Source of the DNA: Patagioenas fasciata
Taxonomy: Eukaryota
Length of the DNA: 64,000 bases
Assembly: GCF_037038585.1 (NCBI RefSeq)
Contig: NC_092556.1
Location: 450,619-514,618 of the forward strand
Direction of reading: 5' to 3'
The notes under the pieces are model-generated. The model was not told the origin of the DNA. It saw nothing but the letters and a program-made list of their open reading frames with translations, and made no database searches. A program made the translations under genes and the position numbers. Of this stretch, positions 1 to 50,047 are shown piece after piece. Numbering within the stretch: position 1 is the first letter of the stretch; each line of letters begins with the position of its first letter.

Positions 1-1650
1 GGGTGATGTGGGGTGATGTGGGGCGGGATGTGGGGCAGCTCGTAGCGGCCCTGCAGCGTCAGCAGGTGCAGCGCCTGCAGCCCTGGATGTGGGGCAGATG
101 TGGGGTGATGTGGGGTGATGTGGGGCGGGATGTGGGGCAGCTCGTAGCGGCCCTGCAGCGTCAGCAGGTGCAGCACCTGCAGCCCTGCGTGTGGGGTGAT
201 GTGGGGTGATGTGGGGTGATGTGGGGTGATGTGGGGCAGGATGTGGGGCGGGATGTGGGGCAGCTCGTAGCGGCCCTGCAGCGTCAGCAGGTGCAGCGCC
301 TGCAGCCCTGGATGTGGGGTGATGTGGGGCAGATGTGGGGCGGGATGTGGGGTGATGTGGGGCGGGATGTGGAGCAGATGTGGGGCAGATGTGGGGCGGG
401 ATGTGGGGTGATGTGGGGCAGGATGTGGGGCAGATGTGGGGTGATGTGGGGCGGGATGTGGGGTGATGTGGGGCAGATGTGGGGTGATGTGGGGCGGGAT
501 GTGGGGCAGCTCGTAGCGGCCCTGCAGCGTCAGCAGGTGCAGCGCCTGCAGCCCTGGATGTGGGGTGATGTGGGGTGATGTGGGGCAGATGTGGGGCGGG
601 ATGTGGGGTGATGTGGGGCGGGATGTGGGGCAGCTCGTAGCGGCCCTGCAGCATCAGCAGGTGCAGCGCCTGCAGCCCTGCAGGTGGGGTGATGTGGGGC
701 AGATGTGGGGCGGGATGTGGGGCGGGATGTGGGGTACTAATGGGGCACAGTGGGGCGGGATATGGGGTACAAATGGGGCACAGTGGGGTGGGGTATTGGG
801 CAGGATCTGGGCCATGATGTGGGTGGGATGTGGGGTGATGTGGGGCGGGATGTGGGGCAGCTCGTAGCGGCCCTGCAGCGTCAGCAGGTGCAGCGCCTGC
901 AGCCCTGGATGTGGGGTGATGTGGGGTGATGTGGGGTGATGTGGGTGGGATGTGGGGCGGATGTGGGGCGGGATGTGGGGTGATGTGGGGCAGATGTGGG
1001 GCAGGATGTGGGGCGGGATGTGGGGTGATGTGGGGCGGGATGTGGGGCAGCTCGTAGCGGCCCTGCAGCGTCAGCAGGTGTAGCGCCTGCAGCCCTGGAT
1101 GTGGGGTGGTGTGGGGCAGAAGATGGGGCAGGATATGGGGTACAAATGGGGCTCAGTGGGGTGGGATTTGGGGTACAAATGGGGCACAGTGGGGTGGGAT
1201 TTGGGGTACAAATGGGGCACAGTGGGGTGGGATATTGGGCAGGATGTGGGGCAGGATGTGTGTGGGATGTGGGGCAGATGTGGGGCAGAAGATGGGGCGG
1301 GATGTGGGGTACAAATGGGGCACAGTGGGGTGGGATATTGGGCAGGATCTGGGCCATGATGTGGGGCAGATGTGGGGTGATGTGGGGCAGAAGATGGGGC
1401 ACAGGGCAGCAAAACGTGGGGTGGGATGTGGGGTACAAATGGGGCACAGTGGGGTTGGATATTGGGCAGGATGTGGGGCACAACGTGGGTGGAATGTGGG
1501 GCAGATATGGGGGGCGATGTGGGGCAGAAGATGGGACAAGTGGGGCAGGATCTGGACCATGATGTGGGGCAGGATGTGGGGCAGGAGCTGGGGCACCATT
1601 GGGGATGTGGGGCGGGATCTATGGGGCGGGATCTATGGGGCAGAACCAAG
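1..1650. repeat. Tandem array built on a GATGTGGGG(C/T) 9-mer, interspersed with a ~50-bp core (cagctcgtagcggccctgcagcgtcagcaggtgcagcgcctgcagccctgg)
   Basis: Direct reading: gggtgatgtggggcgggatgtgggg units with the 50-bp core recurring at 36, 138, 261, 508, 631, 858 and 1048. Confidence 0.9.
36..1098 (-). other. Seven tandem copies of an MFAP4-like exon 5' fragment; minus strand reads ccag|GGCTGCAGGCGCTGCACCTGCTGACGCTGCAGGGCCGCTACGAGCTG = (G)LQALHLLTLQGRYEL
   Basis: The minus-strand translation matches MFAP4 ...EYWLG|LQNMHLLTLKQKYEL in the phase required by the upstream exon's phase-1 donor. Each copy keeps a pyrimidine-tract acceptor but runs into the CCCCACATC satellite instead of the rest of the exon. 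Confidence 0.6.
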
Positions 1651-1714
1651 GCCACCAAACCCCATAGAGCAACGGGAGCTGCTGCAAACCCAGGACTGGG
1701 AGGGACCCGGTCTG

Positions 1715-1812
1715 CGCTGTTCTGTACCAGTCTATACTGGTTTGTACTGGTCCATACTGGTCTATAGTGGTCTATACCGGTCCATACTGGTCTGTACTGG
1801 TCTATACTGGAC
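1715..1812. repeat. (ACTGGTCTAT)n 10-bp microsatellite immediately downstream of the MFAP4-like exon donor (intronic)
   Basis: ccagtctatactggtttgtactggtccatactggtctatagtgg... Confidence 0.85.
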
Positions 1813-1816
1813 TCAC

Positions 1817-1913
1817 CCAGCCAGTATTCGCCGTCCGCGCGTCCAAACCCCTGTTTGTAGTCGTTCCAGCCCCGGAAAAAACTGACGGAGCCGTTAAATC
1901 GCTTCTGAAAAAC
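1817..1913 (-). CDS. MFAP4: MFAP4-like (fibrinogen-related domain) exon encoding [33 protein letters not shown]
   Basis: Near-identical to human MFAP4 [35 protein letters not shown]. Minus-strand acceptor ttcag|GTTTTT and donor CTGG|gtgagt. It is part of the listed ORF 1071..2078 on the minus strand. Confidence 0.85.
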
Positions 1914-1924
1914 CTGAATTATGG

Positions 1925-3950
1925 GAGGGGGTTGGGGGGCACCCGGACGCCTGGGTCCCTCCCGGACGCCTGGGTCCCTCCCGAACTCCTGGGTGCCCCC
2001 CCAATCTCCTGCATCCCCCCCTATATCACACGGACCCCTTAGGCAGACCAGGTCTACCCAGGACCCTCCCAGGGCCACCAGGTCTACCCCGACCTTTCTC
2101 CCCCGAACTCCTGGGTCCCCCCCGAACTCCTGGGTTCCCCCCCGAACTCCTGGGTCCCTCGGGGCACTCCCGGGTCCCTCCCGAACTCCTGGGTCCCTTG
2201 GGGCACTCCTGGGTCCCTCCCGAACTCCTGGGTCCCCCCTATATCACACGGACCCCTTAGGCAGACCAGGTCTACCCAGGACCCTCCCAGGGCCACCAGG
2301 TCTACCCTGCTCTTTCTCCCCCGCACTCCTGGGTCCCCCCCGAACTCCTGGGTCCCCCCGGGTCCGTGGGGCACTCCGGGGTCCCTGGGGCACTCCCGGG
2401 TCCCTTGGGGCACTCCTGGGTCCCTCCCGTACCCCTACATCCCCCCTGTATCAGCTGGACCCCTTAGGCAGACCAGGTCTACCCAGGACCCTCCCAGGGC
2501 CACCAGGTCTACCCTGCTCTTTCTCCCCCGCACTCCTGGGTTCCCCCCCGCACTCCTGGGTTCCCCCGCCCCCCCGGGTCCCTTGGGGCACTCCTGGGTC
2601 CCTCCCGTACCCCTACATCCCCCCTATATCACACGGACCCCTTAGGCAGACCAGGTCTACCCAGGACCCTCCCAGGGCCACCAGGTCTACCCCGACCTTT
2701 CTCCCCCAAACTCCTGGGTTCCTCCCCGAACTCCTGGGTACCCCCCCGAACTCCTGGGTCCCCCCCCGCACTCCTGGGTCCCTCTCGAACTCCTGGATCC
2801 CTTGGGGCACTCCTGGGTCCCTTGGGGCACTCCTGGCTCCCTCCCCGAACTCCTGGTTCCCCCCATATTATATGGACCCCTTAGGCAGACCAGGTCTACC
2901 CAGGACCCTCCTAGGGCCACCAGGTCTACCCTGCTGTTTCTCCCCCGCACTCCTGGGTCCCCCCCGAACTCCTGGGTCTCCTCGGGTCCGTGGGGCACTC
3001 CGGGGTCCGTGGGGCACTCCTGGGTCCCTTGGGGCACTCCTGGGTCCCTCCCGTACCCCTACATCCCCCCTATATCACACGGACCCCTTAGGCAGACCAG
3101 GTCTACCCAGGACCCTCCCAGGGCCACCAGGTCTACCCTGCTCTTACTCCCCTGCACTCCTGGGTCCCCCCCGAACTCCTGGGTCCCCCCCGGGTCCGTG
3201 GGTCCCTCCGGGGTCCGTGGGTCCCTCCGGGGTCCGTGGGGCACTCCGGGGTCCCTTGGGGCACTCCCGGGTCTGTGGGGCACTCCTGGGTCCCCCCATA
3301 TTATATGGACCCCTTAGGCAGACCAGGTCTACCCAGGACCCTCCCAGGGCCACCAGGTCTACCCTGCTCTTTCTCCCCCGAACTCCTGGGTCCCTCCCCG
3401 CACTCCTGGGTCCCCCCCGCACTCCTGGGTCCCCCCGGGTCCGTGGGGCACTCCGGGGTCCGTGGGGCACTCCTGGGTCCCTTGGGGCACTCCGGGGTCC
3501 CTCCCCGAACTCCTGAGTCCCCCCATATTATATGGACCCCTTAGGCAGACCAGGTCTACCCAGGACCCTCCCAGGGCCACCAGGTCTACCCCGACCTTTC
3601 TCCCCCGAACTCTTGGGTCCCTCCCCGCACTCCTGGGTCCCCCCCGCCCCCCCGGGTCCCTGGGGCACTCCCGGGTCCCTCCTGAACTCCTGGGTCCCCC
3701 CTCGCACTCCTGGGTCCTCCTCAAACTCCTGGGTCCCACTCCTGGGTCTCCCCCAACCTCCTACATCCCCCCTATATCACACGGACCCCTTAGGCAGACC
3801 AGGTCTACCCAGGACCCTCCCAGGGCCACCAGGTCTACCCTGCTGTTTCTCCCCCGCACTCCTGGGTCCCCCCCGCACTCCTGGGTCCCCCCGGGTCCGT
3901 GGGTCCCTCCGGGGTCCGTGGGGCACTCCGGGGTCCCTTGGGGCACTCCG
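1925..3950. repeat. ~225-bp tandem repeat, about 9 units, containing CCCGGACGCCTGGGTCCC and ccctatatcacacggaccccttaggcagaccaggtctaccc
   Basis: The unit signature recurs at 2010, 2235, 2440, 2615, 2870, 3065, 3300, 3530 and 3770. It lies in the MFAP4-like intron. Confidence 0.85.
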
Positions 3951-3961
3951 GGGTCCCGTAC

Positions 3962-4105
3962 CGTCCAGACGTGGCCCAGCGTGCTCATGTCGCAGAAGAC
4001 GGGCAGGGGGGGCGCCCCGCTGCCCCCCGGGTACACCAGGTAGACGCCGTCCTCGCGCTCCCCCCCCGCGTGGATGTCGTGGCAGTCGCGGGGGGGCGGG
4101 GGCAC
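3962..4105 (-). CDS. MFAP4: MFAP4-like exon encoding VPPPPRDCHDIHAGGEREDGVYLVYPGGSGAPPLPVFCDMSTLGHVWT
   Basis: Matches human MFAP4 LDCDDIYAQGYQSDGVYLIYPSGPSVPVPVFCDMTTEGGKWT. Acceptor cgag|GTGCCC and donor ACG|gtacgg. It splices in phase 0 to the exon at 1817-1913 (WT|VFQKRF). Confidence 0.8.
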
Positions 4106-4139
4106 CTCGCAGGGGGGAGGGGCTGGCACAGCCACGGGG

Positions 4140-4900
4140 GGGTCATTGGGGGGGCCCCAGTGTCCCCGTGTCCCCATTGACCCCATTGACCCCATTGTTC
4201 CATTGCCCCCAGTGTCCCCATTGACCCCATTGTCCCCATTGACCCCATTATCCCATTAATTATCCCCATTGTTCCCATTGCCCCCATTGTCCCCATTGAT
4301 CCCCATTGTCCCATTCCCCCATTGTCCCCATTGTCCCAGTATCCCCATTATCCCATTAATTATCCCCATTGTCCCCATTCTCCCCATTGTCCCATTGCCC
4401 CCATTGTCCCCATTGCCCCCATTGCCCCCATTGCCCCCTATGTCCCCATTGTCCCAATGTCCCCATTGCCCCCAATGTCCCCATTGTCCCAATGTCCCCA
4501 TTGCCCCCATTGTCCCCATTGCGCCATTGTCCCCATTGCCCCCAATGTCCCCATTGCCCCATTATCCCCATTGCCCCCAATGTCCCCATTGTCCCAATGT
4601 CCCCATTGTCCCCATTGCCCCCAATGTCCCCATTGTCCCCATTGCCCCCAATGTCCCCATTGCCCCATTGTCCCCATTGCCCCCAATGCCCCCATTGTCC
4701 CCATTGCCCCCAATGTCCCCAATGTCCCCATTGCCCCATTGTCCCCATTGCCCCATTGTCCCCATTGCCCCCAATGTCCCCATTGTCCCAATGTCCCCAT
4801 TGTCCCCATTGCCCCCTTGTCCCCATGGTCTGTCCCCTCGTCCCCTGTCCGTCCCGTGTCCGTGGGTCCCACCTCGGGGGCTGATGGGTTGTCCCCCCCC
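4140..4900. repeat. (CCCCATTGTCC)n ~11-bp minisatellite
   Basis: Direct reading. It generates the listed spurious ORFs such as 4269..5249. Confidence 0.9.
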
Positions 4901-4929
4901 CAGTGTCCCCAGGGTCACCAGCGTCAGCA

Positions 4930-6440
4930 GCAGCACCTGCAATGGGGGCGTGTGGGGACCTATAGGATCCATAGGGGGTCCCTATAGAATCCATGGGGTG
5001 CTCTGGGGATCCCTGTTGGATCCACGGGGGGGTCTGGGGGTCCCTATAGGATCCATAGGGGGTCCCTATAGAATCCATGGGGTGCTCTGGGGATCCCTGT
5101 TGGATCCACAGGGGGGTCTGGGGGTCCCTATAGGATCCATAGGGGTTCCCTATAGAATCCATGGGGTGCTCTGGGGATCCCTATTGGATCCGCAGGGGGC
5201 TCTGGGGGGGTCCTATAGGATCCATAGGGGGTCCCCATATGATCCATAGGGGGCTCTGGGGGTCCCTATAGGATCTACAGGGGGGTCGAGTGGTCCCTAT
5301 AGGATCCATAGGAGGTCCCTATAAGATCCATAGTGGGGTCTTGGGGTCCCTATAGGATCCATAGGAGGTCCCTATAGGATCCATAGTGGGGTCTGGGGGT
5401 CCCTGTAGGATCTATGGGGGCTCTGGGGATCCATATAAGATCCATAGGGAGTCCCTATAGGATCCATAGTGGGGCCTGGGCGTCCCCATAGGATCCATAG
5501 GGGGGTCCCTATAGGATCTATGGGGGGCGGAATTTGATCCGTATAGGATCCATAGGGGGTCCCTATAGGATCCATAGGGGTGTCTGGGGGGGTCCCTATA
5601 AGGTCCATAGGGGATCAGTTTGATCCCTATAAGATCCATGGGGGAGTCTGGGGGTCCCTATAGAATCTATAGGGGAGTCTGGGGATCCCTATAGGACCCA
5701 TGGTGAGGGGGGTTGATCCCTATAGGATCCATAGGGGGTCCCTATAGGATCCATACGTCTATCTGGGGGTCCCTATTGGATCCATAGGGGGGTTTGGGGG
5801 TCCCTATAAGATCCATAGGGGATCCCTATAAGATGCATAAGGGGTTGGGGGCTCCCTATAGGATCTATAAGGGGTCCCTATAGGGCCCATAGGGGGTCAG
5901 GGGGTCCCTATTGAGTCCATAGGGGGGCTGGGGGTCCCTATAAGATCCATAGTGGGTCCCTATAGAATCCATAGGGTGCTCTGGGGGGCCCTATAGGATC
6001 CATAGGGGGTCCCTATAAGACCCATAGGGGTGCAGTTTGATCCCTATCGGATCCATAGGGGGGTGTGGGGGTCCCCATAGGATCCATAGGGGGTCTGGGG
6101 ATCCCTATAGGATCCATGGGCGGTCCCTATAGGATCCATAGGGGGTCCTTATAGGACCCACAGGGGTGCAGTTTGATCCCTATCGGATCCATAGGGGGGT
6201 CTGGGGGTCCCTATTGGACCCATAGGGGGTGTGGGGGTCCCTATAAGACCCATAGTGGGTCCCTATAGAATCCATGGGGTGCTCTGGGGGTCCCTATAGG
6301 ATCCATAGGGGGTCCCTATAAGACCCACAGGGGTGCAGTTTGATCCCTATCGGATCCATAGGGGGGCTGGGGGTCCCCATAGGATCCATAGGGGGGCTGG
6401 GGGTCCCCATAGGATCCATAGGGTGCCCGTAGGCCCCCGG
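4930..6440. repeat. ~22-bp minisatellite GGATCCATAGGGGGTCCCTATA
   Basis: Direct reading. Confidence 0.9.
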
Positions 6441-13281: not shown

Positions 13282-13581
13282 GGCAGGGGGTTTTCGGGGC
13301 GCCATGTACAATGGGATCGGGCTGGCGACGCCGCGGGGCAGCGGCACCAACGGCTACGTGCAGCGCAACCTGTCGGCCCTGCGGGGCAAACGGGAGCCCA
13401 GGACGGCCCAGAACGGGGGAGACCCCCCCCCCGGCCCCCCCGGCCCCGATCGGGACGACCCCCCCACCCTGGAAACCGGGGGGCTGCTCCGCAAACCCAA
13501 CCCCGACATCCTCGACCACCAGCGCAAGAGGAAGGTGGAGCTGAAATGCCTGGAGCTGGCCGAGCTCATGGAGGAGCAGGG
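13282..13581 (+). CDS. SRRM2: SRRM2 first coding exon (ATG at 13304): [34 protein letters not shown]...PNPDILDHQRKRKVELKCLELAELMEEQG
   Basis: Strong match to the human SRRM2 N-terminus [24 protein letters not shown]...KRPNPDILDHERKRRVELRCLELEEMMEEQG. Acceptor ccccccgcag| at 13281. Donor GG|gtgagt, phase 2. Confidence 0.9.
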
Positions 13582-13599
13582 GTGAGTGGCTCAAAGTGG

Positions 13600-15105: not shown

Positions 15106-15190
15106 GTGAGTGCCCCCAAAACCCCCCCGAGACCCCCCAAAACCCCCCCTAATTAACCCCCCCCCCCTTAACGAGCTCCCCCCTCGTTAG

Positions 15191-15346
15191 CGTGACGGAA
15201 ACTCATCAGCTGGCCGAAGCTAACGAGAAGAAGAACGAGCGGCTGCGGGCGGCCTTCGGGATCAGCGACAGCTACGTGGACGGGAGCTCCTTCGACCCCG
15301 CGCGCCGCGCCAAAGAGACCCCCCCGGAGCCCCCCGAGCCCCCCAG
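15191..15346 (+). CDS. SRRM2: SRRM2 exon: AVTETHQLAEANEKKNERLRAAFGISDSYVDGSSFDPARRAKETPPEPPEPP
   Basis: Matches human PAVTETHQLAELNEKKNERLRAAFGISDSYVDGSSFDPQRRA. Acceptor cgttag|. Donor CCCCAG|gtaccg. Confidence 0.9.
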
Positions 15347-16330: not shown

Positions 16331-16383
16331 AGGTGAACGTTGGGGTGCGGGGCCCCCCGTGGTGACCCCCCCCCGTTCCCCAG

Positions 16384-16461
16384 CGCCGGGCGCGAGGCCT
16401 CGAGCTCCCGCTCCCCGTCCCCCAAGCAGAAGAAGAAGAAGAAGAAGAAGGATCGGGGCAG
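16384..16461 (+). CDS. SRRM2: SRRM2 exon: SAGREASSSRSPSPKQKKKKKKKDRGR
   Basis: Matches human RESSSSRSPTPKQKKKKKKKDRGR. Acceptor cccag|. Donor GGCAG|gtgagg. Confidence 0.9.
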
Positions 16462-16529
16462 GTGAGGTGTGGGGAGGAAGGGGGCGCGGGGGGGTCGGGG
16501 TTGGGCCCCATGGAATGTGTGGGTCGCAG

Positions 16530-16583
16530 GTCGGCCAGCCGCTCCGGGGAGAGGAAGAAGAGCTCCAAGAAGAAGAAGCACAG
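16530..16583 (+). CDS. SRRM2: SRRM2 exon: RSASRSGERKKSSKKKKHR
   Basis: Matches human RSESSSPRRERKKSSKKKKHR. Acceptor tcgcag|. Donor CACAG|gtgggg. Confidence 0.9.
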
Positions 16584-16589
16584 GTGGGG

Positions 16590-18500
16590 TCTGTGGGGCG
16601 GGATCTGGGGGGGGGGATCTATGGGGGATCTGGGGGGGGATCTATGGGTTGGGGTGTATGGGGTGGGGTCTATGGGGCACGACCTAGGGGGGATCGGTTG
16701 GGGGATCTGTGGGGTGGGATCTGTGGGGTGGGATCTGTAGGGGGGATCTATGGGGTGGATCTATGGGGGAGCTGGTGGGGGGAATCTATGGGTTGGGGTC
16801 TATGGGGGGTGTATGGGGTGGGGTCTATGGGGCACGACCTAGGGGGGATCGGTTGGGGGATCTGTGGGGTGGGATCTATAGGGTAGATCTGTGGGGGATC
16901 TATGGGGTGGATCTATGGGGGATTGGAGGGGGAATCTATGGGGTGGATCTATGGGGGATCTGGGGGGGGGGAATCTATGGGTTGGGGTGTATGGGGTGGG
17001 GTCTATGGAGCACGACCTAGGGGGAATCAGTTGGGGGATCTGTGGGGTGGGATCTATAGGGTAGATCTGTGGGGGATCTGTGGGGTGGGATCTGTAGGGG
17101 GGGATCTATGGGGTGGATCTATGGGGGATCTGGGGGGGGAATCTATGGGTTGGGGTCTATGGGGGTGTATGGGGTGGGGTCTATGGGGCACGACCTAGGG
17201 GGGATCGGTTGGGGGATCTGTGGGGTGGGATCTGTAGGGGGGATCTATGGGGTGGATCTATGGGGGAGCTGGGGGGGGGAATCTATGGGTTGGGGTCTAT
17301 GGGGGGTGTATGGGGTGGGGTCTATGGGGCACGACCTAGGGGGGATCGGTTGGGGGATCTGTGGGGTGGGATCTGTAGGGGGGATCTATGGGGTGGATCT
17401 ATGGGGGATCTGGTGGGGGGAATCTATGGGTTGGGGTCTATGGGGGGTGTATGGGGTGAGATCTATGGGGCACGACCTAGGGGGGATCGGTTGGGGGATC
17501 TGTGGGGTGGGATCTATAGGGTAGATCTGTGGGGGATCTATGGGGTGGGATCTGTAGGGGGGGATCTATGGGGTGGAACTATGGGGGATCTGGTGGGGGG
17601 AATCTATGGGTTGGGGTCTATGGGGGGTGTATGGGGTGGGGTCTATGGGGCACGACCTAGGGGGGATCGGTTGGGGGATCTGTGGGGTGGGATCTGTAGG
17701 GTAGATCTGTGGGGGATCTGTGGGGTGGGATCTGTAGGGGGGGATCTATGGGGGATCTGGGGGGGGGGAATCTATGGGTTGGGGTCTATCGGTTGGGGTG
17801 TATGGGGTGGGGTCTATGGGGCACGATCTAGGGGGGATCTGTGGGGTGGGATCTATAGGGTAGATCTGTGGGGGATCCATGGGGTGGGGTCTATGGGGTG
17901 AGATCTATAGGGGGGATCTATGGGGTGGATCTATGGGGCATCTGGGGGGGAATCTATGGGGTGGATCTATGGGGGATCATCTATAGAGGATCTGTGGGGC
18001 GGGATCTATGGGGTGAATCTGTAGGGGATCTGTGGGGCGGGATCTATAGGGGATCTATGGGGTGAATCTATAGGGGATCTGTGGGGTGGGATCTATGGGG
18101 TGAATCTATAGGGGATCTGTGGGGCGGGATCTAGGGGGTGGATCTATGGGGGATCATCTATGGAGGATCTGGGGGGCGGGATCTATGGGGTGAATCTGTA
18201 GGGGATCTATGGGGCACGACCTATGGGGTGGATCTATGGGGTGGGTCTGTGGGGTGGAATCTAGGGGGGATCTCGGGTAGATCTATGGGGTATCTGTGGG
18301 ATGGGATCTATAGGGTGAGATCTATATGGGATCTCTGGGGCAGGATCTATGGGGTAGGATATGGAGTGGGATCTATAGGGTGAGATCTGTGGGGCACGAC
18401 TTACGGGGTAGGGTGTGGGGTGGGATCCATGGGGCAGAGTCCATAGGAGAGATCCATAGGGTGGAATCTGTGGGGCAGGATCCATAGGGCGGGATCCATG
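16590..18500. repeat. GGATCTATGGGGTGG-family minisatellite
   Basis: Direct reading. Confidence 0.9.
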
Positions 18501-41290: not shown

Positions 41291-41313
41291 CCCGCTGTCC
41301 CCGCTGTCCCCAG

Positions 41314-41529
41314 GCTGCGGGCGCCCCCTGGCGGGGCTGTCGCGCAACGTGGGCGGCGAGGACGCGGGGGCGGGGCGGTGGCCCTGGCAGGGGTCCCTGC
41401 CCCCATTGCCCCCATTGTCCCCTCTGTCCCCATTGTCCCCAGGCTGCGGGCGCCCCCTGGCGGGGCTGTCGCGCAACGTGGGCGGTGAGGACGCGGGGGA
41501 GGGGCGGTGGCCCTGGCAGGGGTCCCTGC
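41314..41529 (+). other. Two tandem pseudo-copies (41314-41400 and 41443-41529) of the first 87 nt of protease exon 3 (acceptor + [19 protein letters not shown](A/E)GRWPWQGSL), each truncated at TCCCTGC| into the CCCCATTG satellite
   Basis: The sequence is identical to the real exon (41599-41685) apart from two substitutions. Each copy keeps the ccccag acceptor but has no donor. Confidence 0.8.
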
Positions 41530-41598
41530 CCCCATTGTCCCCATTGTCCCCATTGCCCCCATTGTCCCCAATGTCCCCTCTGTCCCCGCTGTCCCCAG

Positions 41599-41764
41599 GC
41601 TGCGGGCGCCCCCTGGCGGGGCTGTCGCGCAACGTGGGCGGTGAGGACGCGGGGGAGGGGCGGTGGCCCTGGCAGGGGTCCCTGCAGCGCCGCGGCCGCC
41701 ACGTCTGCGGGGCCTCGCTGGTGGCGCCCGCCTGGGTGCTCACGGCCGCCCACTGCTTCCAGAC
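41599..41764 (+). CDS. Serine protease exon 3: (S)[54 protein letters not shown](T), containing the catalytic His
   Basis: Matches testisin/PRSS21 [54 protein letters not shown]. Acceptor ccccag|GCTGCG. Donor CAGAC|gtgaga. Confidence 0.85.
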
Positions 41765-41799
41765 GTGAGAGCGGGGGGGGGGGCATGGGGATGGGGGGG

Positions 41800-43325
41800 T
41801 CACATGGGGGGGGTCACATGACGGGGGGTGGTTATGGGGCTGGGGGGGGCAGATGGGGCTGAGGGGTGGGGGTCACATGGGGCTGGGGGGGTCACATGGG
41901 GCTGGGGGGCGTGGTTATGGGGCTGGCGGGTGGGGGTCCCATGGGGCTGGGGGGGTCACATGGGGCTGGGGGTGGGGTCCCATGGGGCTGGGGGGGTCCC
42001 ATGGGGCTGGGGGGGTTGTGGGGTGGGGGGCTATGGGGCTGGAAGGGGGTTGTGCGGGTAAGGGGGATCACATGGGGCTGGGGTGACCCCATCGCCCCCC
42101 ATTGCCCCCATTGCCCCCATTGCCCCATTGTCCCCATTGCCCCCATTGTCCCCATTGCCCCCATTGCCCCCATTGCCCCAAATGTCCCCATTGCCCCCAT
42201 TGCCCCCATTGTCCCCATTGCCCCCATTGCCCCCATTGCCCCATTGTCCCCATTGCCCCATTGCCCCATTGCCCCCATTGCCCCATTGCCCCCATTACCC
42301 CCATTGCCCCATTGCCCCCATTGCCCCCATTGCCCCCATTGCCCCATTGTCCCCATTGTCCCATTGCCCCCATTGCCCCCATTGCCCCATTGTCCCCATT
42401 GCCCCCATTGCCCCATTGCCCCCATTGCCCCCATTGCCCCATTGCCCCCATTGCCCCCCATTGCCCCATTGCCCCCATTGCCCCCATTGCCCCATTGTCC
42501 CCATTGCCCCATTGCCCCATTGCCCCCATTGCCCCATTGCCCCCATTACCCCCATTGCCCCATTGCCCCCATTGCCCCCATTGCCCCCATTGCCCCCATT
42601 GCCCCATTGCCCCCATTGCCCCATTGTCCCCATTGCCCCCAATGTCCCCATTGCCCCCATTGCCCCCATTGTCCCCATTGCCCCCATTGCCCCCATTGAC
42701 CCCCATTGCCCCCATTGCCCCCATTGCCCCCATCGCCCCCATTGTCCCCATTGCCCCCATTGCCCCCATTGACCCCCATTGCCCCCATCGCCCCCATTGT
42801 CCCCATTGCCCCCATTGCCCCCAATGCCCCATTGCCCCATTACCCCCATTACCCCCATTGCCCCATTGCCCCCATTGCCCCCATTGCCCCATTGCCCCCA
42901 TTGCCCCCATTACCCCCATTACCCCCAATGTCCCCATTGCCCCCATCGCCCCCATTGCCCCCATTGCCTCATTGCCCCCATTGTCCCCATTGTCCCCATT
43001 ACCCCCATTGCCCCATTGCCCCCATTGTCCCCATTGCCCCCATTGTCCCCATTGCCCCCATTGCCCCCATTGCCCCCATTACCCCCATTGCCCCCATTGC
43101 CCCCATTACCCCCATTGCCCCCATTGCCCCCATTGCCCCCATTACCCCCATTACCCCCATTGTCCCCAATGTCCCCATTACCCCCAATGCCCCCATTACC
43201 CCCACCGCCCCCATTACCCCCACCGCCCCCATTACCCCCAATGCCCCCATTACCCCCACCGCCCCCATTGCCCCCATTACCCCCATCCCCCCCATCCCCC
43301 CCATCCCCCCCATCCCCCCCATCGC
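41800..43325. repeat. GGGGCTGGGGGGGTCACATGG-type array, then a long (CCCCATTGCCC)n minisatellite
   Basis: Direct reading. It generates the spurious ORFs 42102..43643 and 42068..42964 (minus strand), among others. Confidence 0.9.
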
Positions 43326-43333
43326 CCCCACAG

Positions 43334-43605
43334 GGACCGCGACCCCCGCTCGTACTCGGTGCTGCTGGGCGCCCCGGAGCTGTCGGGCCCGCCGGGGGTG
43401 GGCGTGGCCATCCCGCTGGGGCGGGTCCTGCCCCACCCCTCGTACGCGGGCGAGGCCACCAGCGGGGACATCGCGCTGGCCCAGCTGGCCCGGCCCGTCC
43501 CCCTCTCGGCCGCGGTGCTGCCCGTCTGCCTGCCCGGGCCGCGCCTCCGCTTCCCGCCCGGCACCCCCTGCGTGGCCACCGGCTGGGGGGACATCGCCGA
43601 GGGAG
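43334..43605 (+). CDS. Serine protease exon 4: DRDPRSYSVLLGAPELSGPPGVGVAIPLGRVLPHPSYAGEATSGDIALAQLARPVPLSAAVLPVCLPGPRLRFPPGTPCVATGWGDIAEG, containing the catalytic Asp (DIAL)
   Basis: Matches the testisin region RYLGNSPYDIALVKLSAPV...CWVTGWGYIKEDE. Acceptor cccacag|GGACC. Donor GGGAG|gtcagg. Confidence 0.85.
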
Positions 43606-43619
43606 GTCAGGGGGACACG

Positions 43620-45800
43620 GGGGTGAGGGGGGCGTGGGGGTGATGGGGGTCATGGGGGCATTGGGGGTGATGGGGGTAATGGGGGCATTGAGGGTGATGG
43701 GGGCAATGGGGGTGGTAGGGACATTGGGGGTGATGGAGGTGATGGGGACATTGGGGACAATGGGGACAATGGGGACGTGGGGGGCAATGGGGGCAATGGG
43801 GACATTGGGGCAATGGGGGTAATGGGGGCAATGGGGGCAATGGGGACATTGGGGGTAATGGGGACAATGGGGACATGGGGGGCAATGGGGGCAATGGGGG
43901 TGATGGGGACATTGGGGGCAATGGGGACATTGAGGGTGATGGGGGCAATGGGGGTGGTAGGGACATTGGGGGCAATGGGGACATTGGGGGCAATGGGGAC
44001 AATGGGGACGATGGGGACATGGGGGACAATGGGGGCAATGGGGGCAATGGGGACATTGGGGGTGATGGGGGCAATGAGGACATGGGGGCAGTGGGGGCAT
44101 TGGGGGTGATGGGGACATTGGGGGCAATGGGGGCAATGGGGGCATTGGGGAAATTGGGGGTAATGGGGACATTGAGTGTAATGGGGGCAATGGGGGTGGT
44201 AGGGACATTGGGGGAAATGGAGGTGATGGGGACATTGGGGGTGATGGGGGCAATGGGGACATGGGGGGCAATGGGGACGATGGGGACGTGGGGGACAATG
44301 AGGACAATGGGGGCAATGGGGGCTATGGGGACATTGGGGACAATGGGGACATGGGGGACAATGGGGGCAATGGGGACAATGGGGGCAATGGGGACATTGG
44401 GGACGATGGGGACATGGGGGACAATGGGGACAATGGGGGCAATGGGGACATTGGGGACGATGGGGACATGGGGGACAATGGGGGCAATGGGGGCAATGGG
44501 GGCAATGGGGACATTGGGGACGATGGGGACATGGGGGACAATGGGGGCAATGGGGGCAATGGGGGCAATGGGGACATTGGGGACGATGGGGACATTGGGG
44601 GTGATGGGGAAATGGGCACCCAAGGGCACCCAACCATGGCCAAGGGCCCCCAATGGGGGTCAAGGGCACTCAGTGTGGGTCAAGGGCACCCAACGGGGAT
44701 CAAGGGCACCCAATGAGGATCAAGGGCACCCAGTGGGACTCAATGGGGATCAAGGGCACCCAAGGGCACCCAATGGGGATCAAGGGCACCCAACAGGGAT
44801 CAAGGGCACCCAACCATGACCAATGGCCCCCAATGGGGATCAAGGGCACCCAACCATGGTCAAGATGACCCAATGGGCGTCAAGGGCACCCAATCACACC
44901 CAAGGGGACCCAACGGGATCAAGGGCACTCAATGAGGATCAAGGGCACCCAGTGGGGGTCAATGGGGATCAAGGGCACCCAAGGGCACCCAATGGGGATC
45001 AAGGGCACCCAGTGGGGTCAAGGGCACCCAACCATAACCAACGGCCCCCAATGGGGATCAAGGCCACCCAAGGGCACCCAAAGGGGATCAAGGGCACCGA
45101 ACCATGACCAAGGGCCCCCAATGGGGATCAAGGCCACCCAAGGGCACCAACCATGACCAAGGGCCCCCAGTGGGACCCAACGGGGATCAAGGGCACCCAA
45201 GGGCCCCCAACCATGGTCAAGATGACCCAATGGGGGTCAAGGGCAACCAACCACACCCAAGGGGACCCAATGGGGATCAAGGGCACCCAAGGGCACCCAA
45301 TGGGACTCAATGGGGATCAAGGGCACCCAAGGGCACCCAATGGGGATCAGGGGCACTCAATGGGGATCAAGGGCACCCAACAGGGATCAAGGGCACCCAA
45401 CCATGACCAAGGGCCCCCAATGGGGATCAATGGCACTCAGTGGGGGTCAAGGGCACCCAGTGGGGGTCAAGGGCACCCAAGGGCACCCAATGGGGATCAA
45501 GGGCACTCAGTGGGGATCAAGGGCCCCCAATGGGGATCAAGGGCACCCAACCATGACCAAGGGCCCCCAATGGGGATCAAGGGCACCCAAGGGCACCAAC
45601 CATGACCAAGGGCACCCAATGGGGATCAAGGGCACCCAACCATGACCAAGGGCACCCAGTGGGGACCAAGGCCACCCAAGGGCACCAACCATGACCAAGG
45701 GCACCCAGTGGGGACCAAGGCCACCCAAGGGCACCAACCATGACCAAGGGCACCCAGTGGGACCCAATGGGGATCAAGGGCACCCGAGGGCCCCCAACGG
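43620..45800. repeat. (GGGGCAATGG / GGGGACATTGG)n, then a GGGATCAAGGGCACCCAAT-family minisatellite
   Basis: Direct reading. Confidence 0.9.
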
Positions 45801-45834
45801 GCTCCAGCGCGCCCCCCGCGCCCCTCCCCCGCAG

Positions 45835-46004
45835 AGGACCTCCCGTCGCCGCGGCGGCTGCAGCAGCTGGAGGTGCCGCTGTTGGCGCAGCAGACGTGCC
45901 AGCGCCTCTACCGCACCGACATGGGGCGCGCGCGGCCCCCGCGGCCCATCCAGCCCGACATGCTCTGCGCCGGCTACGCCGACGGCCGCAAGGACACCTG
46001 CAAG
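45835..46004 (+). CDS. Serine protease exon 5: (E)DLPSPRRLQQLEVPLLAQQTCQRLYRTDMGRARPPRPIQPDMLCAGYADGRKDTCK
   Basis: Matches testisin ALPSPHTLQEVQVAIINNSMCNHLF...DMVCAGNAQGGKDACF. Acceptor ccccgcag|. Donor TGCAAG|gtaccc. Confidence 0.85.
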
Positions 46005-46009
46005 GTACC

Positions 46010-49000
46010 CGGAGGTGTCACCGGGGGGGGTGGAACCACTGGGTGGGCACCAGAACCCCCTGAGATGTCACCATGGGGGGTGGAACCATTGGGTGGGCAC
46101 CAGAACCCCCTGGAGATGCCACCATAGGGGTCACCAACCCACCCTTGATCCCCAAGATGTCCTCAAGAACCACTGGGTGGGCACCAGAACCCCCTGGAGA
46201 TGTCACCATGGGGGGTGGAACCATTGGGTGGGCACCAGAACCCCCTGGAGATGCCACCATGGGTGTCCCCAACCCATCTTTGACCCCCAAAATGTCCTCA
46301 AGAACCACTTGGTGGGCACCAAAAGGTCCTTGAGGTGTCACCATGGGGGGATGGAACCATTTGGTGGGCACCAGAACCCCCTGGAGATGTCACCATGGGG
46401 GGTGGAACCATTGGGTGGGCACCAGAACCCACTTGAGATGCCACCATGGGGGGTGGAACCATTGGGTGGGCACCAGAACCCACTTGAGATGCCACCATGG
46501 GGGGTGGAACCATTGGGTGGGCACCAGAACCCCCTGGAGATGTCACCATGGGGGGTGGAACCATTGGGTGGGCACCAGAAGCCCCTGGAGATGTCACCAT
46601 GGGGGGTGGAACCATTGGGTGGGCACCAGAACCCCCTGGAGATGCCACCATGGGGGGTGGAACCATTGGGTGGGCACCAGAACCCCCTGGAGATGTCACC
46701 ATGGGGGGTGGAACCATTGGGTGGGCACCAGAACCCCTGGAGATGTCACCATGGGGGGTGGAACCATTGGGTGGGCACCAGAACCCCCTGGAGATGCCAC
46801 CATGGGGGGTGGAACCATTGGGTGGGCACCAGAACCCCCTGGAGATGTCACCATGGGGGGTGGAACCATTGGGTGGGCACCAGAACCCCCTGGAGATGCC
46901 ACCATGGGGGGTGGAACCACTGGGTGGGCACCAGAACCCCCTGGAGATGCCACCATGGGTGTCCCCAACCCATCCTTGACCCCCAATGGGGGTCAATGGG
47001 ACCCAACAGGGACTGGATGGGGTCAAGGGCACCCAATGGGATCCAACCGTGGCCAAGGGTACCCAATGGGGGTCAACGGCACCCAATGAGATCCAGCCGT
47101 GGACAAGGGTACCCAATGGGGATCAAGGGCACCCAATGGGGGTCAAGGGCACCCAATGAGATCCAACCATGGCCAAGGGCACCCAATGGGGGATCCAATG
47201 GGAGTCAAGGGCACCCAAGGGCACCCAACAGGGGTCAAGGGCATCCAATGGGGGTCAAGGGCACCCAATAGGACCCAACCATGGCCAAGGGCTCCCAATG
47301 AAGATCAAGGGCACCCAATGAAGATCAAGGGCACCCAATGGGGGTCAAGGGCACCCAATGGGGAACAAGGGCACCCAATGGGACCCAACCATGGCCAAGG
47401 GCTCCCAATGAAGATCAAGGGCACCCAATGGGGGTCAAGGGCACCCAATGGGGATCAAGGGCACCCAATGGGACCCAACCATGGCCAAGGGCTCCCAATG
47501 AAGATCAAGGGCACCCAATGGGGGTCAAGGGCACCCAATGAGGGTCAAGGGCACCCAACGGGACCCAACCATGTCCAAGGGCACCCAATGGGGGTCAATG
47601 GCACCCAATGGGGTCCAAGGGCACCCAACAGGACCCAACCATGGCCAAGGGCTCCCAATGAAGATCAAGGGCACCCAATAGGACCCAACCATGGCCAAGG
47701 GCACCCAATGGGGGTCAAGGACACCCAATGGGGTTCAAGGGCACCCAATGGGACCCAACCATGGCCAAGGGCACCCAATGAAGATCAAGGGCACCCAATG
47801 GGGGTCAAGGGCACCCAACGGGACCCAACCATGGCCAAGGGCTCCTAATGAAGATCAAGGGCACCCAATGGGGGTCATGGGCACCCAATGGGACCCAACC
47901 ATGGCCAAGGGCTCCCAATGAAGATCAAGGGCACCCAACGGGGGTCAAGGACACCCAATGGGACCCAACCATGGCCAAGGGCACCCAATGGGGGTCAATG
48001 GCACCCAATGGGGGTCAAGGACACCCAATGGGACCCAACCATGGCCAAGGGCACCCAATGAAGATCAAGGGCACCCAATGGGGGTCAAGGGCACCCAATG
48101 GGGATCAAGGACACCCAATGGGACCCAACCATGGCCAAGGGCTCCCAATGAAGATCAAGGGCACCCAATGGGGGTCAAGGGCACCCAATGGGGAACAAGG
48201 GCACCCAATAGGACCCAACCATGGCCAAGGGCACCCAATGAAGATCAAGGGCACCCAATGGGGGTCAAGGGCACCCAATGGGGAACAAGGGCACCCAATA
48301 GGACCCAACCATGGCCAAGGGCACCCAATGAAGATCAAGGGCACCCAATGAAGATCAAGGGCACCCAACGGGACCCAACCATGGCCAAGGGCACCCAATG
48401 GGGGTCAAGGGCACCCAACGGGACCCAACCATGGCCAAGGGCACCCAATGGGGGTCAAGGACACCCAATGGGGTTCAAGGGCACACAATGGGACCCAACC
48501 GTGGCCAAGGGCACCCAATGAAGATCAAGGGCACCCAATGGGGGTCAAGGGCACCCAACGGGACCCAACCATGGCCAAGGGCACCCAATGGGGGTCAAGG
48601 GCACCCAATGGGGGTCAAGGGCACCCAACAGGACCCAACCATGGCCAAGGGCTCCCAATGAAGATCAAGGGCACCCAATAGGACCCAACCATGGCCAAGG
48701 GCACCCAATGGGGGTCAAGGACACCCAATGGGGTTCAAGGGCACCCAATGGGACCCAACCATGGCCAAGGGCACCCAATGGGGGTCAAGGACACCCAATG
48801 GGGTTCAAGGGCACCCAATAGGACCCAACCATGGCCAAGGGTTCCCAATGAAGATCAAGGGCTCCCAATGGGGAACAAGGGCACCCAATGGGACCCAACC
48901 ATGGCCAAGGGCACCCAATGAAGATCAAGGGCACCCAATGGGGGTCAAGGGCACCCAATGGGGATCAAGGACACCCAACGGGACCCAACCATGGCCAAGG

Positions 49001-49620
49001 GCTCCCAATGAAGATCAAGGGCACCCAATGGGGGTCAAGGGCACCCAATGGGGATCAAGGACACCCAATGGGACCCAACCATGGCCAAGGGCTCCCAATG
49101 AAGATCAAGGGCACCCAATGGGGGTCAAGGGCACCCAATGGGGAACAAGGGCACCCAATAGGACCCAACCATGGCCAAGGGCACCCAATGAAGATCAAGG
49201 GCACCCAATGGGGGTCAAGGGCACCCAATGGGGAACAAGGGCACCCAATAGGACCCAACCATGTCCAAGGGCTCCCAATGAAGAACAAGGGCACCCAATA
49301 GGACCCAACCATGGCCAAGGGCACCCAATGGGGGTCAAGGGCACCCAATGGGGGTCAAGAACACCCAATGGAACCCAACCATGGCCAAGGGCACCCAATG
49401 AAGATCAAGGGCACCCAACGGGACCCAACCATGGCCAAGGGCTCCGAATGAAGATCAAGGGCACCCAATGGGGGTCATGGGCACCCAATGGGACCCAGCC
49501 ATGGCCAAGGGCTCCCAATGGGGATCAAGGGCACCCAACAGGACCCAACCGTGTCCAAGGGCACCCAATGGGGGACCCAACGTGGGTCAATGGCACCCAA
49601 GCTGCCCCCCCCATGTCCCC
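46010..49620. repeat. ~59-bp GGGGGTGGAACCATTGGGTGGGCACCAGAACCCCCTGGAGATGTCACCAT satellite, then a long GGGTCAAGGGCACCCAATGG(GACCCAACCATGGCCAAGG) satellite
   Basis: Direct reading. It generates dozens of the listed spurious ORFs. Confidence 0.9.
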
Positions 49621-49648
49621 CCCCTCGGTGACCCCACCCTCCCCCTAG

Positions 49649-50047
<399 letters not shown>

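What the first reader, a model, noticed from the sequence alone, without database searches (positions are those of the whole stretch)
36..1098. MFAP4 exon fragment amplified seven times inside a satellite array
A 50-bp core recurs seven times within the GATGTGGGG minisatellite. On the minus strand it reads ccag|GGCTGCAGGCGCTGCACCTGCTGACGCTGCAGGGCCGCTACGAGCTG. That is exactly the continuation (G)LQALHLLTLQGRYEL expected after the phase-1 donor of the real MFAP4-like exon at 1817-1913. Each copy keeps an acceptor but is truncated into the satellite. This looks like satellite expansion capturing an exon edge, and the copies could act as cryptic or decoy acceptors or mark a disrupted terminal exon.
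Basis: partly seen in the sequence, partly recalled or inferred. Interest (0 to 1): 0.65.

Follow-up and report, generated by a model that had tools for sequence, protein, structure and literature searches.

The report
Exon-edge copies in pigeon MFAP4 intron
Seven truncated copies of the start of MFAP4 exon 5, each with its splice acceptor, sit inside an intronic minisatellite of a band-tailed pigeon gene; this is a real, species-specific example of the recently published "exon stuttering" of bird dot chromosomes, not a new kind of element.

Summary
A 50-bp core occurs seven times (0-1 mismatches; none expected by chance) in a CCCCACATC-type minisatellite on the minus strand. Each copy is CAG plus the first 47 nt of MFAP4 exon 5.

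The window is band-tailed pigeon (Patagioenas fasciata). Its MFAP4 gene lies head-to-head with SRRM2.

In the Nicobar pigeon the orthologous intron 4 is only about 705 bp. It holds the same repeat family but no exon copies, and it ends in an intact exon 5 whose first 47 nt differ from the window's copies by one base. The amplification is therefore lineage-specific and young: copies differ by 1.7%, against dS 0.38 between the two pigeons.

Mousebird and wrentit show independent copies of both exon edges flanking this same intron. A second case, in the PRSS33-like gene of this window, shows the intact source exon as the last member of its series.

This matches "exon stuttering" (Hron et al. 2026, GBE), whose supplement lists chicken MFAP4 (chr38). 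Exons 3-4 are under purifying selection (dN/dS 0.09-0.18), so gene disruption is unlikely.

The window stops before this species' own exon 5, and use of the copies as decoy acceptors is untested.

Verdict: new member of a known kind, modest interest.

The parts
1048..1097 (-). Copy 1, the most upstream in gene orientation: CAG acceptor plus the first 47 nt of MFAP4 exon 5. It carries one silent difference (CTG to CTA).
   Evidence: bit score 81.8 against Nicobar pigeon exon 5
858..907 (-). Copy 2, consensus sequence.
   Evidence: 89.7 bits
631..680 (-). Copy 3. It has one CpG transition (Thr to Met), and its acceptor context is ...CCTGCAG|.
507..556 (-). Copy 4, consensus sequence.
261..310 (-). 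Copy 5, consensus sequence.
138..187 (-). Copy 6. It has one CpG transition (Ala to Val) that creates CAG|GTGCTG inside the copy. Its acceptor context is ...CACGCAG|.
36..85 (-). Copy 7, the last one visible. The array continues to window position 1.
1..1640 (-). C-rich minisatellite on the coding strand, filling the 3' part of MFAP4 intron 4. Units are CCCCACATC plus A, TG, CCG or CTG, with about 33-nt variant units at 717-800 and 1110-1640. The template (+) strand is G-rich, and G4 motifs cover 53% of it.
1641..1722 (-). Unique segment of intron 4, orthologous to Nicobar pigeon intron 4 (ccagtcctgggtttgcagcagctcc...).
1723..1810 (-). 10-nt GACCAGTAnn minisatellite directly after the exon-4 donor. 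It is also present in mousebird and wrentit, with remnants in Nicobar pigeon.
1817..1913 (-). MFAP4 exon 4 (VFQKRF...EYWL + G, ending in phase 1; donor GTGAGT at 1816-1811). It is single-copy in the window.
1914..3961 (-). Intron 3, filled by 19-nt units organised in about 207-nt higher-order repeats. It holds no exon copies.
3962..4122 (-). MFAP4 exon 3 (..PPPCEVPPPPRDCHDIH...GHVWT). The start of the exon was inferred from an AG acceptor and phase consistency.
4155..4830 (-). Intron 2 minisatellite: about 76 nine-nt units, CCCCATTGT on the + strand, which reads ACAATGGGG on the coding (minus) strand.
4873..4936 (-). MFAP4 signal-peptide exon ([21 protein letters not shown]). The boundaries were inferred from the splice motifs ttgcag| and |gtggga.

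Best explanation
This is lineage-specific 'exon stuttering' in intron 4 of the band-tailed pigeon MFAP4 gene, which sits on a dot-chromosome-type region.

Proposed sequence of events:

1. A block was tandemly duplicated once. It consisted of a few CCCCACATC-type minisatellite units, the 3' splice site (CAG) and the first 47 nt of exon 5. The new junction joined exon position 47 (...GAGCTG|C) to a satellite unit (CTGC|CCCACATC), so the two sides share 3-4 nt.

2. Unequal exchange or replication slippage within the G4-prone minisatellite then multiplied the block to at least 7 copies. It also varied the spacers by whole 10-12-nt units.

3. The truncated copies accumulate on the intron side. The intact exon 5 should be the last member of the series, just beyond the left edge of the window.

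4. The copies are most likely neutral by-products. They carry the same acceptor as the real exon but have no downstream donor, so exon definition should favour the true exon.

Shown here: the copies, their identity to the orthologous exon start, their absence in the sister lineage, the identical junctions, the purifying selection on the gene, and the parallel cases.

Inferred: the founding microhomology event, the growth mechanism, the position of the intact exon, and neutrality in splicing.
For: - Seven direct copies exist, with 0 expected by chance.
- Every copy has identical flanks ('# A #'-CAG-exon47-'# CCG #', where # = CCCCACATC). The spacers of 52-196 nt differ only in the number of units.
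- In Nicobar pigeon, intron 4 is about 705 bp and holds the same repeat family but no exon copies. It ends in cccccag|GGCTGCAGACGCTG...GAGCTG|CGCGTGGAGCTC..., an intact 185-nt exon 5.
- The published screen criterion is met: blastn-short hits of 49 nt at 96-98% identity, 81.8-89.7 bits. The paper's threshold is 42.1 bits, and the maximum over 50 shuffled introns was 16.4 bits.
- Mean pairwise divergence among the copies is 0.017, against dS 0.38 between the two pigeons.
- Purifying selection acts on exons 3-4: dN/dS is 0.09 against Nicobar pigeon and 0.16-0.18 against and between mousebird and wrentit.
- Independent parallel events flank the same intron. In mousebird the exon-4 donor edge occurs 6 times and the exon-5 edge 3 times; in wrentit, 3 times and 2 times. 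Breakpoints and satellites differ between species, and the junctions fall on CTGACCC-type microhomology.
- Within this window, the PRSS33-like exon at 41599 has two upstream truncated copies (CAG + 86 nt), and the intact exon is the last member of the series.
- G4 motifs cover 53-55% of the template strand of this intron in both pigeons.
- Only 6 GT dinucleotides occur on the coding strand in 1..1097, and none is a plausible donor after a copy.
- Hron et al. 2026 (PMC12954441) define exon stuttering with the same anatomy, and their supplement lists chicken MFAP4, chr38.
Against: - The source exon 5 of this species is not in the window. No match to the rest of exon 5 or to FReD residues 129-255 was found, so its intactness is inferred from orthologs and selection only.
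- The protein databases hold no full-length band-tailed pigeon MFAP4, and the contig could not be fetched.
- There is no read-level confirmation of copy number and no RNA evidence.
- The junction microhomology is only 3-4 nt in a low-complexity, C-rich context and could be coincidental.
- Which molecular process (mitotic slippage or template switching, versus meiotic unequal exchange or gene conversion) generated the array cannot be told from one haplotype.
Confidence: 0.82

Rival explanations
1. Gene decay. Satellite expansion destroyed exon 5 in this lineage, the seven fragments are relics, and MFAP4 is a pseudogene in the band-tailed pigeon.
For: No sequence matching the rest of exon 5 or the C-terminal FReD is in the window. 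NCBI models in wrentit and mousebird stop inside this exon edge. Hron et al. report heavy gene loss on dot chromosomes.
Against: - Exons 3-4 are intact, with canonical splice sites, and have dN/dS 0.09-0.18 at dS 0.38-0.79.
- The Nicobar pigeon ortholog has an intact exon 5 and a 258-aa product.
- All seven fragments share one identical breakpoint. That indicates copying of one duplication product, not independent erosion.
- The PRSS33-like case in the same window keeps its source exon.
- The truncated models in other birds coincide with contig ends.
Confidence: 0.08
2. Assembly artefact. The array, or its copy number, results from mis-assembly of long reads in a low-complexity, G4-rich region.
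For: Such regions are known to be hard to sequence and assemble. Two other bird contigs end in the equivalent arrays.
Against: - The copies carry three distinct point variants, and the spacers have different lengths and unit orders. A collapsed or duplicated read artefact would not look like this.
- The same architecture occurs in three independent assemblies of other species.
- It was validated with raw nanopore reads for chicken stuttering introns.
Confidence: 0.05
3. Functional splice decoys. The acceptor-bearing copies are used by the spliceosome. They would yield truncated or Pro/His-rich-tailed isoforms, NMD substrates or intron retention, and so regulate MFAP4 output. This is compatible with the structural explanation and adds a function to it.
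For: Each copy has the same 3' splice-site sequence as the presumed true exon. The reading frame from most copies stays open through the array. Hron et al. note 'potential alternatively spliced transcripts'.
Against: - No plausible 5' splice site follows any copy; only 6 GT dinucleotides occur in 1.1 kb of coding strand.
- The copies are absent in Nicobar pigeon, and breakpoints differ between species, so no decoy is conserved.
- Two of the three substitutions among the copies are non-synonymous.
- No RNA data are available.
Confidence: 0.07

Closest known systems
Exon stuttering / sequence stuttering of avian dot-chromosome genes (Hron et al. 2026, Genome Biol Evol 18:evag038; PMC12954441)
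   Same: - It is a direct tandem repetition of a lateral part of a coding exon, including its splice site, through the adjacent, minisatellite-filled intron.
- The source starts at the exon border. The exon part is 47 nt (published range 20-187, median 36). There are at least 7 copies (published 1-44, median 4). The span is at least 1.06 kb (published 112-23,555 bp).
- Expansions are species-specific.
- Chicken MFAP4 (chr38) is one of the 115 genes listed.
   Different: - This is a different species (band-tailed pigeon), and the event is absent in Nicobar pigeon.
- The source exon lies outside the window.
- This analysis adds junction-level detail (identical breakpoints, short microhomology) and shows recurrence at both edges of the same intron in mousebird and wrentit. 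The paper does not discuss either point.
Classical intronic minisatellite/VNTR expansion by unequal exchange or replication slippage
   Same: The units are 10-12 nt, and copy number varies between neighbouring blocks. The strand is G-rich and G4-prone. Dot-chromosome introns of several birds are dominated by minisatellites with units in multiples of 10-11 bp.
   Different: Here the higher-order repeat unit contains unique coding sequence and a splice site. That marks the array as locally born and lets its origin and age be traced.
Decoy exons and pseudo splice sites in introns
   Same: Intronic sequences carry bona fide-looking splice sites that are not productively spliced.
   Different: Decoy exons are usually conserved and shown to act in intron retention. 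These copies are young and not conserved, lack donors, and have no expression evidence.

Membership tests
Exon stuttering (Hron et al. 2026) | [quoted passage not shown] | tested here: met
   Seven same-strand copies lie downstream of exon 4, inside the satellite that precedes exon 5 in the ortholog. Caveat: the adjacent source exon of this species is outside the window.
Exon stuttering (Hron et al. 2026) | The copied source lies at most 1 nt from the exon border, so the splice site is copied too | tested here: met
   The alignment to Nicobar pigeon exon 5 starts at the G of the CAG acceptor, immediately before exon nt 1 (0 nt from the exon border). Every copy carries CAG|.
Exon stuttering (Hron et al. 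2026) | blastn-short hit of at least 20 nt with a bit score above the shuffled-intron control (42.1 in the paper) | tested here: met
   Seven hits of 49 nt scored 81.8-89.7 bits. The maximum over 50 shuffles was 16.4 bits. The query was the orthologous exon, not the species' own.
Exon stuttering (Hron et al. 2026) | The source exon itself stays intact (the coding region is unaltered) | tested here: inconclusive
   The exon is not in the window. Indirect support: dN/dS 0.09-0.18, an intact exon 5 and a 258-aa product in Nicobar pigeon, and an intact source exon in the PRSS33-like case.
Exon stuttering (Hron et al. 2026) | The host intron is heavily covered by simple or tandem repeats | tested here: met
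   TRF rows cover essentially all of 1-1640 and 1723-1810. The units were parsed.
Exon stuttering (Hron et al. 2026) | Location on a dot chromosome (a strong preference, not absolute) | tested here: met
   The evidence is indirect. The ortholog lies on the 774,814-bp chromosome record CM069743.1 in Nicobar pigeon, and chicken MFAP4 is on chr38. The window has 54-74% GC over most of its length and is packed with minisatellites.
Exon stuttering (Hron et al. 2026) | Extensive intraspecific intron-length polymorphism | not testable with these tools
   This needs long reads from several band-tailed pigeons.
MFAP4 / fibrinogen-related domain (FReD) gene | Encodes a Fibrinogen_C domain with MFAP4-type sequence and exon phases | tested here: met
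   Pfam PF00147 scores E 2.3e-28, covering profile positions 2-93 of 221. Exon 4 is 97% identical to human MFAP4 residues 81-113 (the recalled human sequence was verified over 143 aa by P0003). The best named hits are bird 'MFAP4-like' proteins. Synteny with SRRM2 holds in four birds. Only the N-terminal 42% of the domain is in the window.
Unitary pseudogene | Relaxed constraint, or disabling mutations in the remaining exons | tested here: not met
   Exons 2-4 have no stops or frameshifts, and their splice sites are canonical. dN/dS is 0.09-0.18.
Functional decoy exon / regulated cryptic splice site | Spliceosome engagement shown by RNA evidence, and evolutionary conservation of the decoy | tested here: not met
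   Conservation fails: the copies are absent in Nicobar pigeon, and breakpoints differ in other birds. RNA evidence cannot be tested here.

The most novel reading that the evidence does not exclude
MFAP4 intron 4 may be an intrinsic, recurrent hotspot. Both of its flanking exon edges have been captured independently in at least three bird orders examined here (pigeon, mousebird, wrentit); chicken MFAP4 is also listed as a stuttering gene, though which intron is not stated. The junctions fall on short microhomologies next to a G4-rich template strand. If so, this would point to replication-fork template switching as the mechanism of 'stuttering'. The multiplied, identical acceptors might also be engaged by the spliceosome and tune MFAP4 output.
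Probability: 0.08. Interest if true: 0.55.

Novelty: new member of a known kind. Interest (0 to 1): 0.3.

Why it matters
This is a clean, sequence-resolved example of exon stuttering outside chicken, with a sister-lineage "before" state. Nicobar pigeon has a short intron with the same repeat family, a single exon and no copies. That contrast dates the event as recent and lineage-specific.

It also exposes the junction: all seven copies share one breakpoint, with 3-4 nt shared with the satellite unit. The published description leaves the mechanism open, so cases like this could be mined to test slippage or template-switch models.

There is a practical side too. These arrays explain why bird MFAP4-like gene models are truncated exactly here and why contigs break at this point. 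Annotators should expect acceptor- or donor-bearing exon fragments in dot-chromosome introns.

It does not reveal a new class of element.

Tried and rejected
1. A search with the exon-5 peptide for bird proteins returned only non-avian LKQKYEL-type exons. It did not even return the duck protein P0009, so the word index is patchy.

2. Contig look-ups failed for duck P0009 and for band-tailed pigeon P0045. I therefore could not walk left of the window to the species' own exon 5.

3. I first guessed the window was chicken or another galloanserine, from QGRYEL shared with duck and from the dS pattern. I rejected this: the PRSS33-like protein of Patagioenas fasciata maps to the window at 98-100% over all four exons, while Nicobar pigeon maps at 77-91%.

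4. Unfiltered tblastx against the other bird loci was swamped by proline-rich translations of satellites. It was useful only after filtering for high identity.

5. I considered an RNA hairpin between the exon-4 end (ATACTGG) and the CCAGTA satellite that might mask the donor. The fold z-score was -1.0, which is not significant.

6. I asked whether other MFAP4 exon edges in the window, or SRRM2 exons, are also copied. None were found.

7. The spacings 102, 123 and 246 nt keep four copies in frame with each other. With only three spacings and no conservation I treat this as chance.

8. I asked whether the satellite derives from the downstream part of exon 5. No similarity was seen.

Full report
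**Observation**

The 50-bp core is present seven times on the + strand, at 36, 138, 261, 507, 631, 858 and 1048. Each copy has 0-1 mismatches. None of 100 dinucleotide-preserving shuffles gave a match, and there is no copy elsewhere in the 64-kb window.

The core lies in a minisatellite of 10-12-nt units. Read on the minus strand, each copy is CAG|GGCTGCAGGCGCTGCACCTGCTGACGCTGCAGGGCCGCTACGAGCTG. This encodes (G)LQALHLLTLQGRYEL.

That peptide continues the phase-1 end of the exon at 1913-1817 ([32 protein letters not shown], donor G|GTGAGT). All seven copies break off at the same nucleotide into ...GAGCTG|CCCCACATCCCGCCCCACATC.

**The gene**

A tblastn with human MFAP4 was run against the window. 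I recalled the human sequence from memory; its first 143 residues are confirmed by database protein P0003. It finds minus-strand exons at 4093-3959 and 1913-1815, plus the seven fragments. Nothing matches residues 129-255.

With splice motifs and phases, the gene in the window is:
- exon 2: 4936-4873
- exon 3: 4122-3962
- exon 4: 1913-1817
- intron 4: at least 1816 nt

Every intron is filled by minisatellites. Exons 3-4 plus one copy score as Fibrinogen_C (Pfam E 2.3e-28, profile positions 2-93 of 221).

Exon 5 is an internal exon, not the terminal one. Duck, mammalian and Nicobar pigeon sequences all run GLQ...DGGAG and then meet a donor.

**Provenance and neighbourhood**

A composite query of the window's neighbouring genes found 'serine protease 33-like [Patagioenas fasciata]' at 100% identity. 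The next best was Nicobar pigeon at 85%. All four exons of that protein map to window 41571-50044 at 98-100%. The window is therefore band-tailed pigeon.

An SRRM2-like (cwf21) gene starts at 13304 on the + strand, head-to-head with MFAP4. The same arrangement holds in mousebird, wrentit and Nicobar pigeon.

The Nicobar pigeon ortholog lies on a 774,814-bp chromosome record, which is dot-chromosome size, and has a 258-residue product.

**Decisive comparison**

In Nicobar pigeon (L003, minus strand) exon 4 is followed by an intron of about 705 bp. That intron contains a degenerate version of the same CCCCACATC repeat family. It ends in cccccag|GGCTGCAGACGCTGCACCTGCTGACGCTGCAGGGCCGCTACGAGCTG|CGCGTGGAGCTCGAGGACTTC..., an intact 185-nt exon 5.

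The window's copies differ from the first 47 nt of this exon by one base, and all seven copies share that difference. I applied the published screen's method: blastn-short with no dust filter, keeping hits of at least 20 nt. Nicobar pigeon exon 5 gives seven hits of 49 nt at 96-98% identity, scoring 81.8-89.7 bits. The published threshold is 42.1 bits, and the maximum over 50 shuffled introns was 16.4 bits. Nicobar pigeon's own intron 4 holds no exon copy of even 15 nt.

The rest of exon 5 is nowhere in the window (best blastn E 0.97). So the amplification arose in the Patagioenas lineage after its split from Caloenas. Mean pairwise divergence among the copies is 0.017, against dS 0.38 between the two pigeons. 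The array, or its last homogenisation, is therefore young.

**How the array was built**

Write # for CCCCACATC. Every copy is embedded as '# A #'-CAG-exon47-'# CCG #'. The spacers of 52-196 nt differ only in the number and order of 10-12-nt units, apart from one insertion of about 33-nt variant units.

Identical junctions with variable spacers fit one founding tandem duplication of [satellite + acceptor + 47 nt], followed by unequal exchange or slippage.

At the junction the exon reads GAGCTGC|GCG and the copy reads GAGCTGC|CCCACATC. CTGCCCCACATC is a common unit, so 3-4 nt are shared. That is suggestive, but weak in such low-complexity sequence.

G4 motifs cover 53% of the template strand of this intron (55% in Nicobar pigeon) and 0% of the coding strand. 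This fits the replication-stress idea raised in the literature.

**Parallel cases**

1. Mousebird. The exon-4 donor edge (GGCGAGTACTGGCTGG|GTACGG...) is repeated six times with a 51-nt period. The exon-5 edge (CAG|GGCTGCAGTGGCTGCACCTCCTGACCCC) occurs three times in a CCCCCCATTGCCCCCCTGA satellite before the contig ends.

2. Wrentit. The donor edge occurs three times. The exon-5 edge occurs twice, as a 70-nt tandem duplication of 41 intron nt plus 29 exon nt, joined at CTGACCC(C)TG.

The breakpoints fall after LLT, after LLTL and after YEL in mousebird, wrentit and the window respectively, and the satellites also differ, so these are independent events. The NCBI 'MFAP4-like' models of these two birds stop inside the copies, and the contigs end there.

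3. Inside this window. The PRSS33-like exon starting at 41599 has two upstream copies of CAG + 86 nt, at 41311-41399 and 41440-41528. They score 196 and 210 bits and differ from the source at 0-2 positions. Each breaks off into a CCCCATTGY satellite, and the intact exon is the last member of the series. This is the architecture I infer for MFAP4.

**Is the gene alive?**

For exons 3-4, dN/dS is 0.09 against Nicobar pigeon. It is 0.16-0.18 in the comparisons against mousebird and wrentit and between those two, with dS 0.38-0.79. The splice sites are canonical. This argues against long-standing pseudogenisation.

The species' own exon 5 is unobserved, however, so intactness remains an inference.

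**Splicing**

All copies share the acceptor and 47 exon nt. The true acceptor in this species is presumably the same.

On the coding strand of 1..1097 there are only six GT dinucleotides, and none is a plausible donor downstream of a copy. One, CAG|GTGCTG, was created by a point mutation inside copy 6. Under exon definition, which is established knowledge and was not tested here, the true exon with its donor 185 nt downstream should win.

Decoy use is possible but unsupported. The copies are not conserved.

**Comparison with what is known**

Hron et al. 2026 (GBE 18:evag038) describe 'sequence stuttering' on chicken dot chromosomes. Its subtype 'exon stuttering' copies a lateral part of a coding exon, with its splice donor or acceptor, in direct tandem through the adjacent intron. 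Their figures are:
- the source lies within 1 nt of the exon border in more than 90% of cases
- the exon part is 20-187 nt
- there are 1-44 copies
- the span is 112-23,555 bp
- 115 genes are affected, mostly on dot chromosomes
- the expansions differ between species

Their supplement lists MFAP4 (chr38:1462727-1477796) among the 115 genes. They offer only speculation on mechanism and do not mention microhomology or slippage. No other paper in the library uses the term, apart from one citing it.

The present finding meets every sequence-level criterion I could test. The two exceptions are the intact source exon, which is inconclusive, and population polymorphism, which is not testable here.

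**Verdict**

It belongs to a recently described kind, and the chicken ortholog of this very gene has already been catalogued.

This window adds three things: a non-chicken member with a clear ancestral-state comparison, junction-level anatomy, and evidence that both edges of this intron are captured repeatedly in different bird orders.

Novelty: new member of a known kind. Interest: 0.3.

Noticed in passing
window 41311-41399, 41440-41528; source exon from 41599 (+ strand): This is a second exon-stuttering case. Two truncated copies (CAG + the first 86 nt) of a PRSS33-like exon lie upstream of the intact exon, and each breaks into a CCCCATTGY satellite. Copy 2 is identical to the source and copy 1 differs at 2 of 90 positions. 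The periods are 129 and 156 nt.
   Followed up: yes
window 41571-41598 (+ strand): The N-terminus (MSPLSPLSP) of the NCBI model for Patagioenas fasciata 'serine protease 33-like' is a translation of the minisatellite directly upstream of the acceptor (ATGTCCCCTCTGTCCCCGCTGTCCCCAG|). This is probably an annotation artefact, and the real signal-peptide exon lies elsewhere.
   Followed up: partly
L001 18196-18480 (mousebird); L002 12810-13150 (wrentit): The 3' edge of MFAP4 exon 4 is tandemly repeated together with its donor (GT), six times in mousebird (51-nt period, 100% identity) and three times in wrentit. It is single-copy in the window and in Nicobar pigeon.
   Followed up: yes
window 1723-1810 (- strand); also L001, L002, with remnants in L003: The 10-nt satellite GACCAGTAnn that starts right after the exon-4 donor is the reverse complement of the exon's last bases (ATACTGG). 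It occurs in the window and in mousebird and wrentit, with only remnants in Nicobar pigeon. The RNA fold of the region is not unusually stable (z = -1.0), so no structural role is indicated.
   Followed up: partly
window 13304-13390, 13490-13587, 15177-15296, ~16366-16737 (+ strand): An SRRM2-like (cwf21-domain) gene lies head-to-head with MFAP4. This arrangement is conserved in mousebird, wrentit and Nicobar pigeon. Its first three exons have no copies in the window above the screen threshold.
   Followed up: partly
window 36-556 (- strand): The spacings between copies 4-7 (246, 123 and 102 nt) are all multiples of three, so these four copies are in frame with each other through a Pro/His-rich satellite translation. 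This is probably chance.
   Followed up: no
window 1-1660 (+ strand): The G4 motifs in this intron are all on the template strand (53% coverage, against 0% on the coding strand). A 2026 preprint reports the opposite general trend in bird introns, with G4s over-represented on the coding strand.
   Followed up: no
whole window: Most of the window consists of tandem minisatellites, for example 19-nt units in about 207-nt blocks at 1940-3958 and a 9-nt unit repeated about 76 times at 4155-4830. GC content is 54-74% in most 2-kb windows, with a lower-GC, strongly G-skewed stretch at 8-12 kb (GC 0.39-0.46, GC skew about 0.75-0.8). The nature of that stretch was not examined.
   Followed up: no
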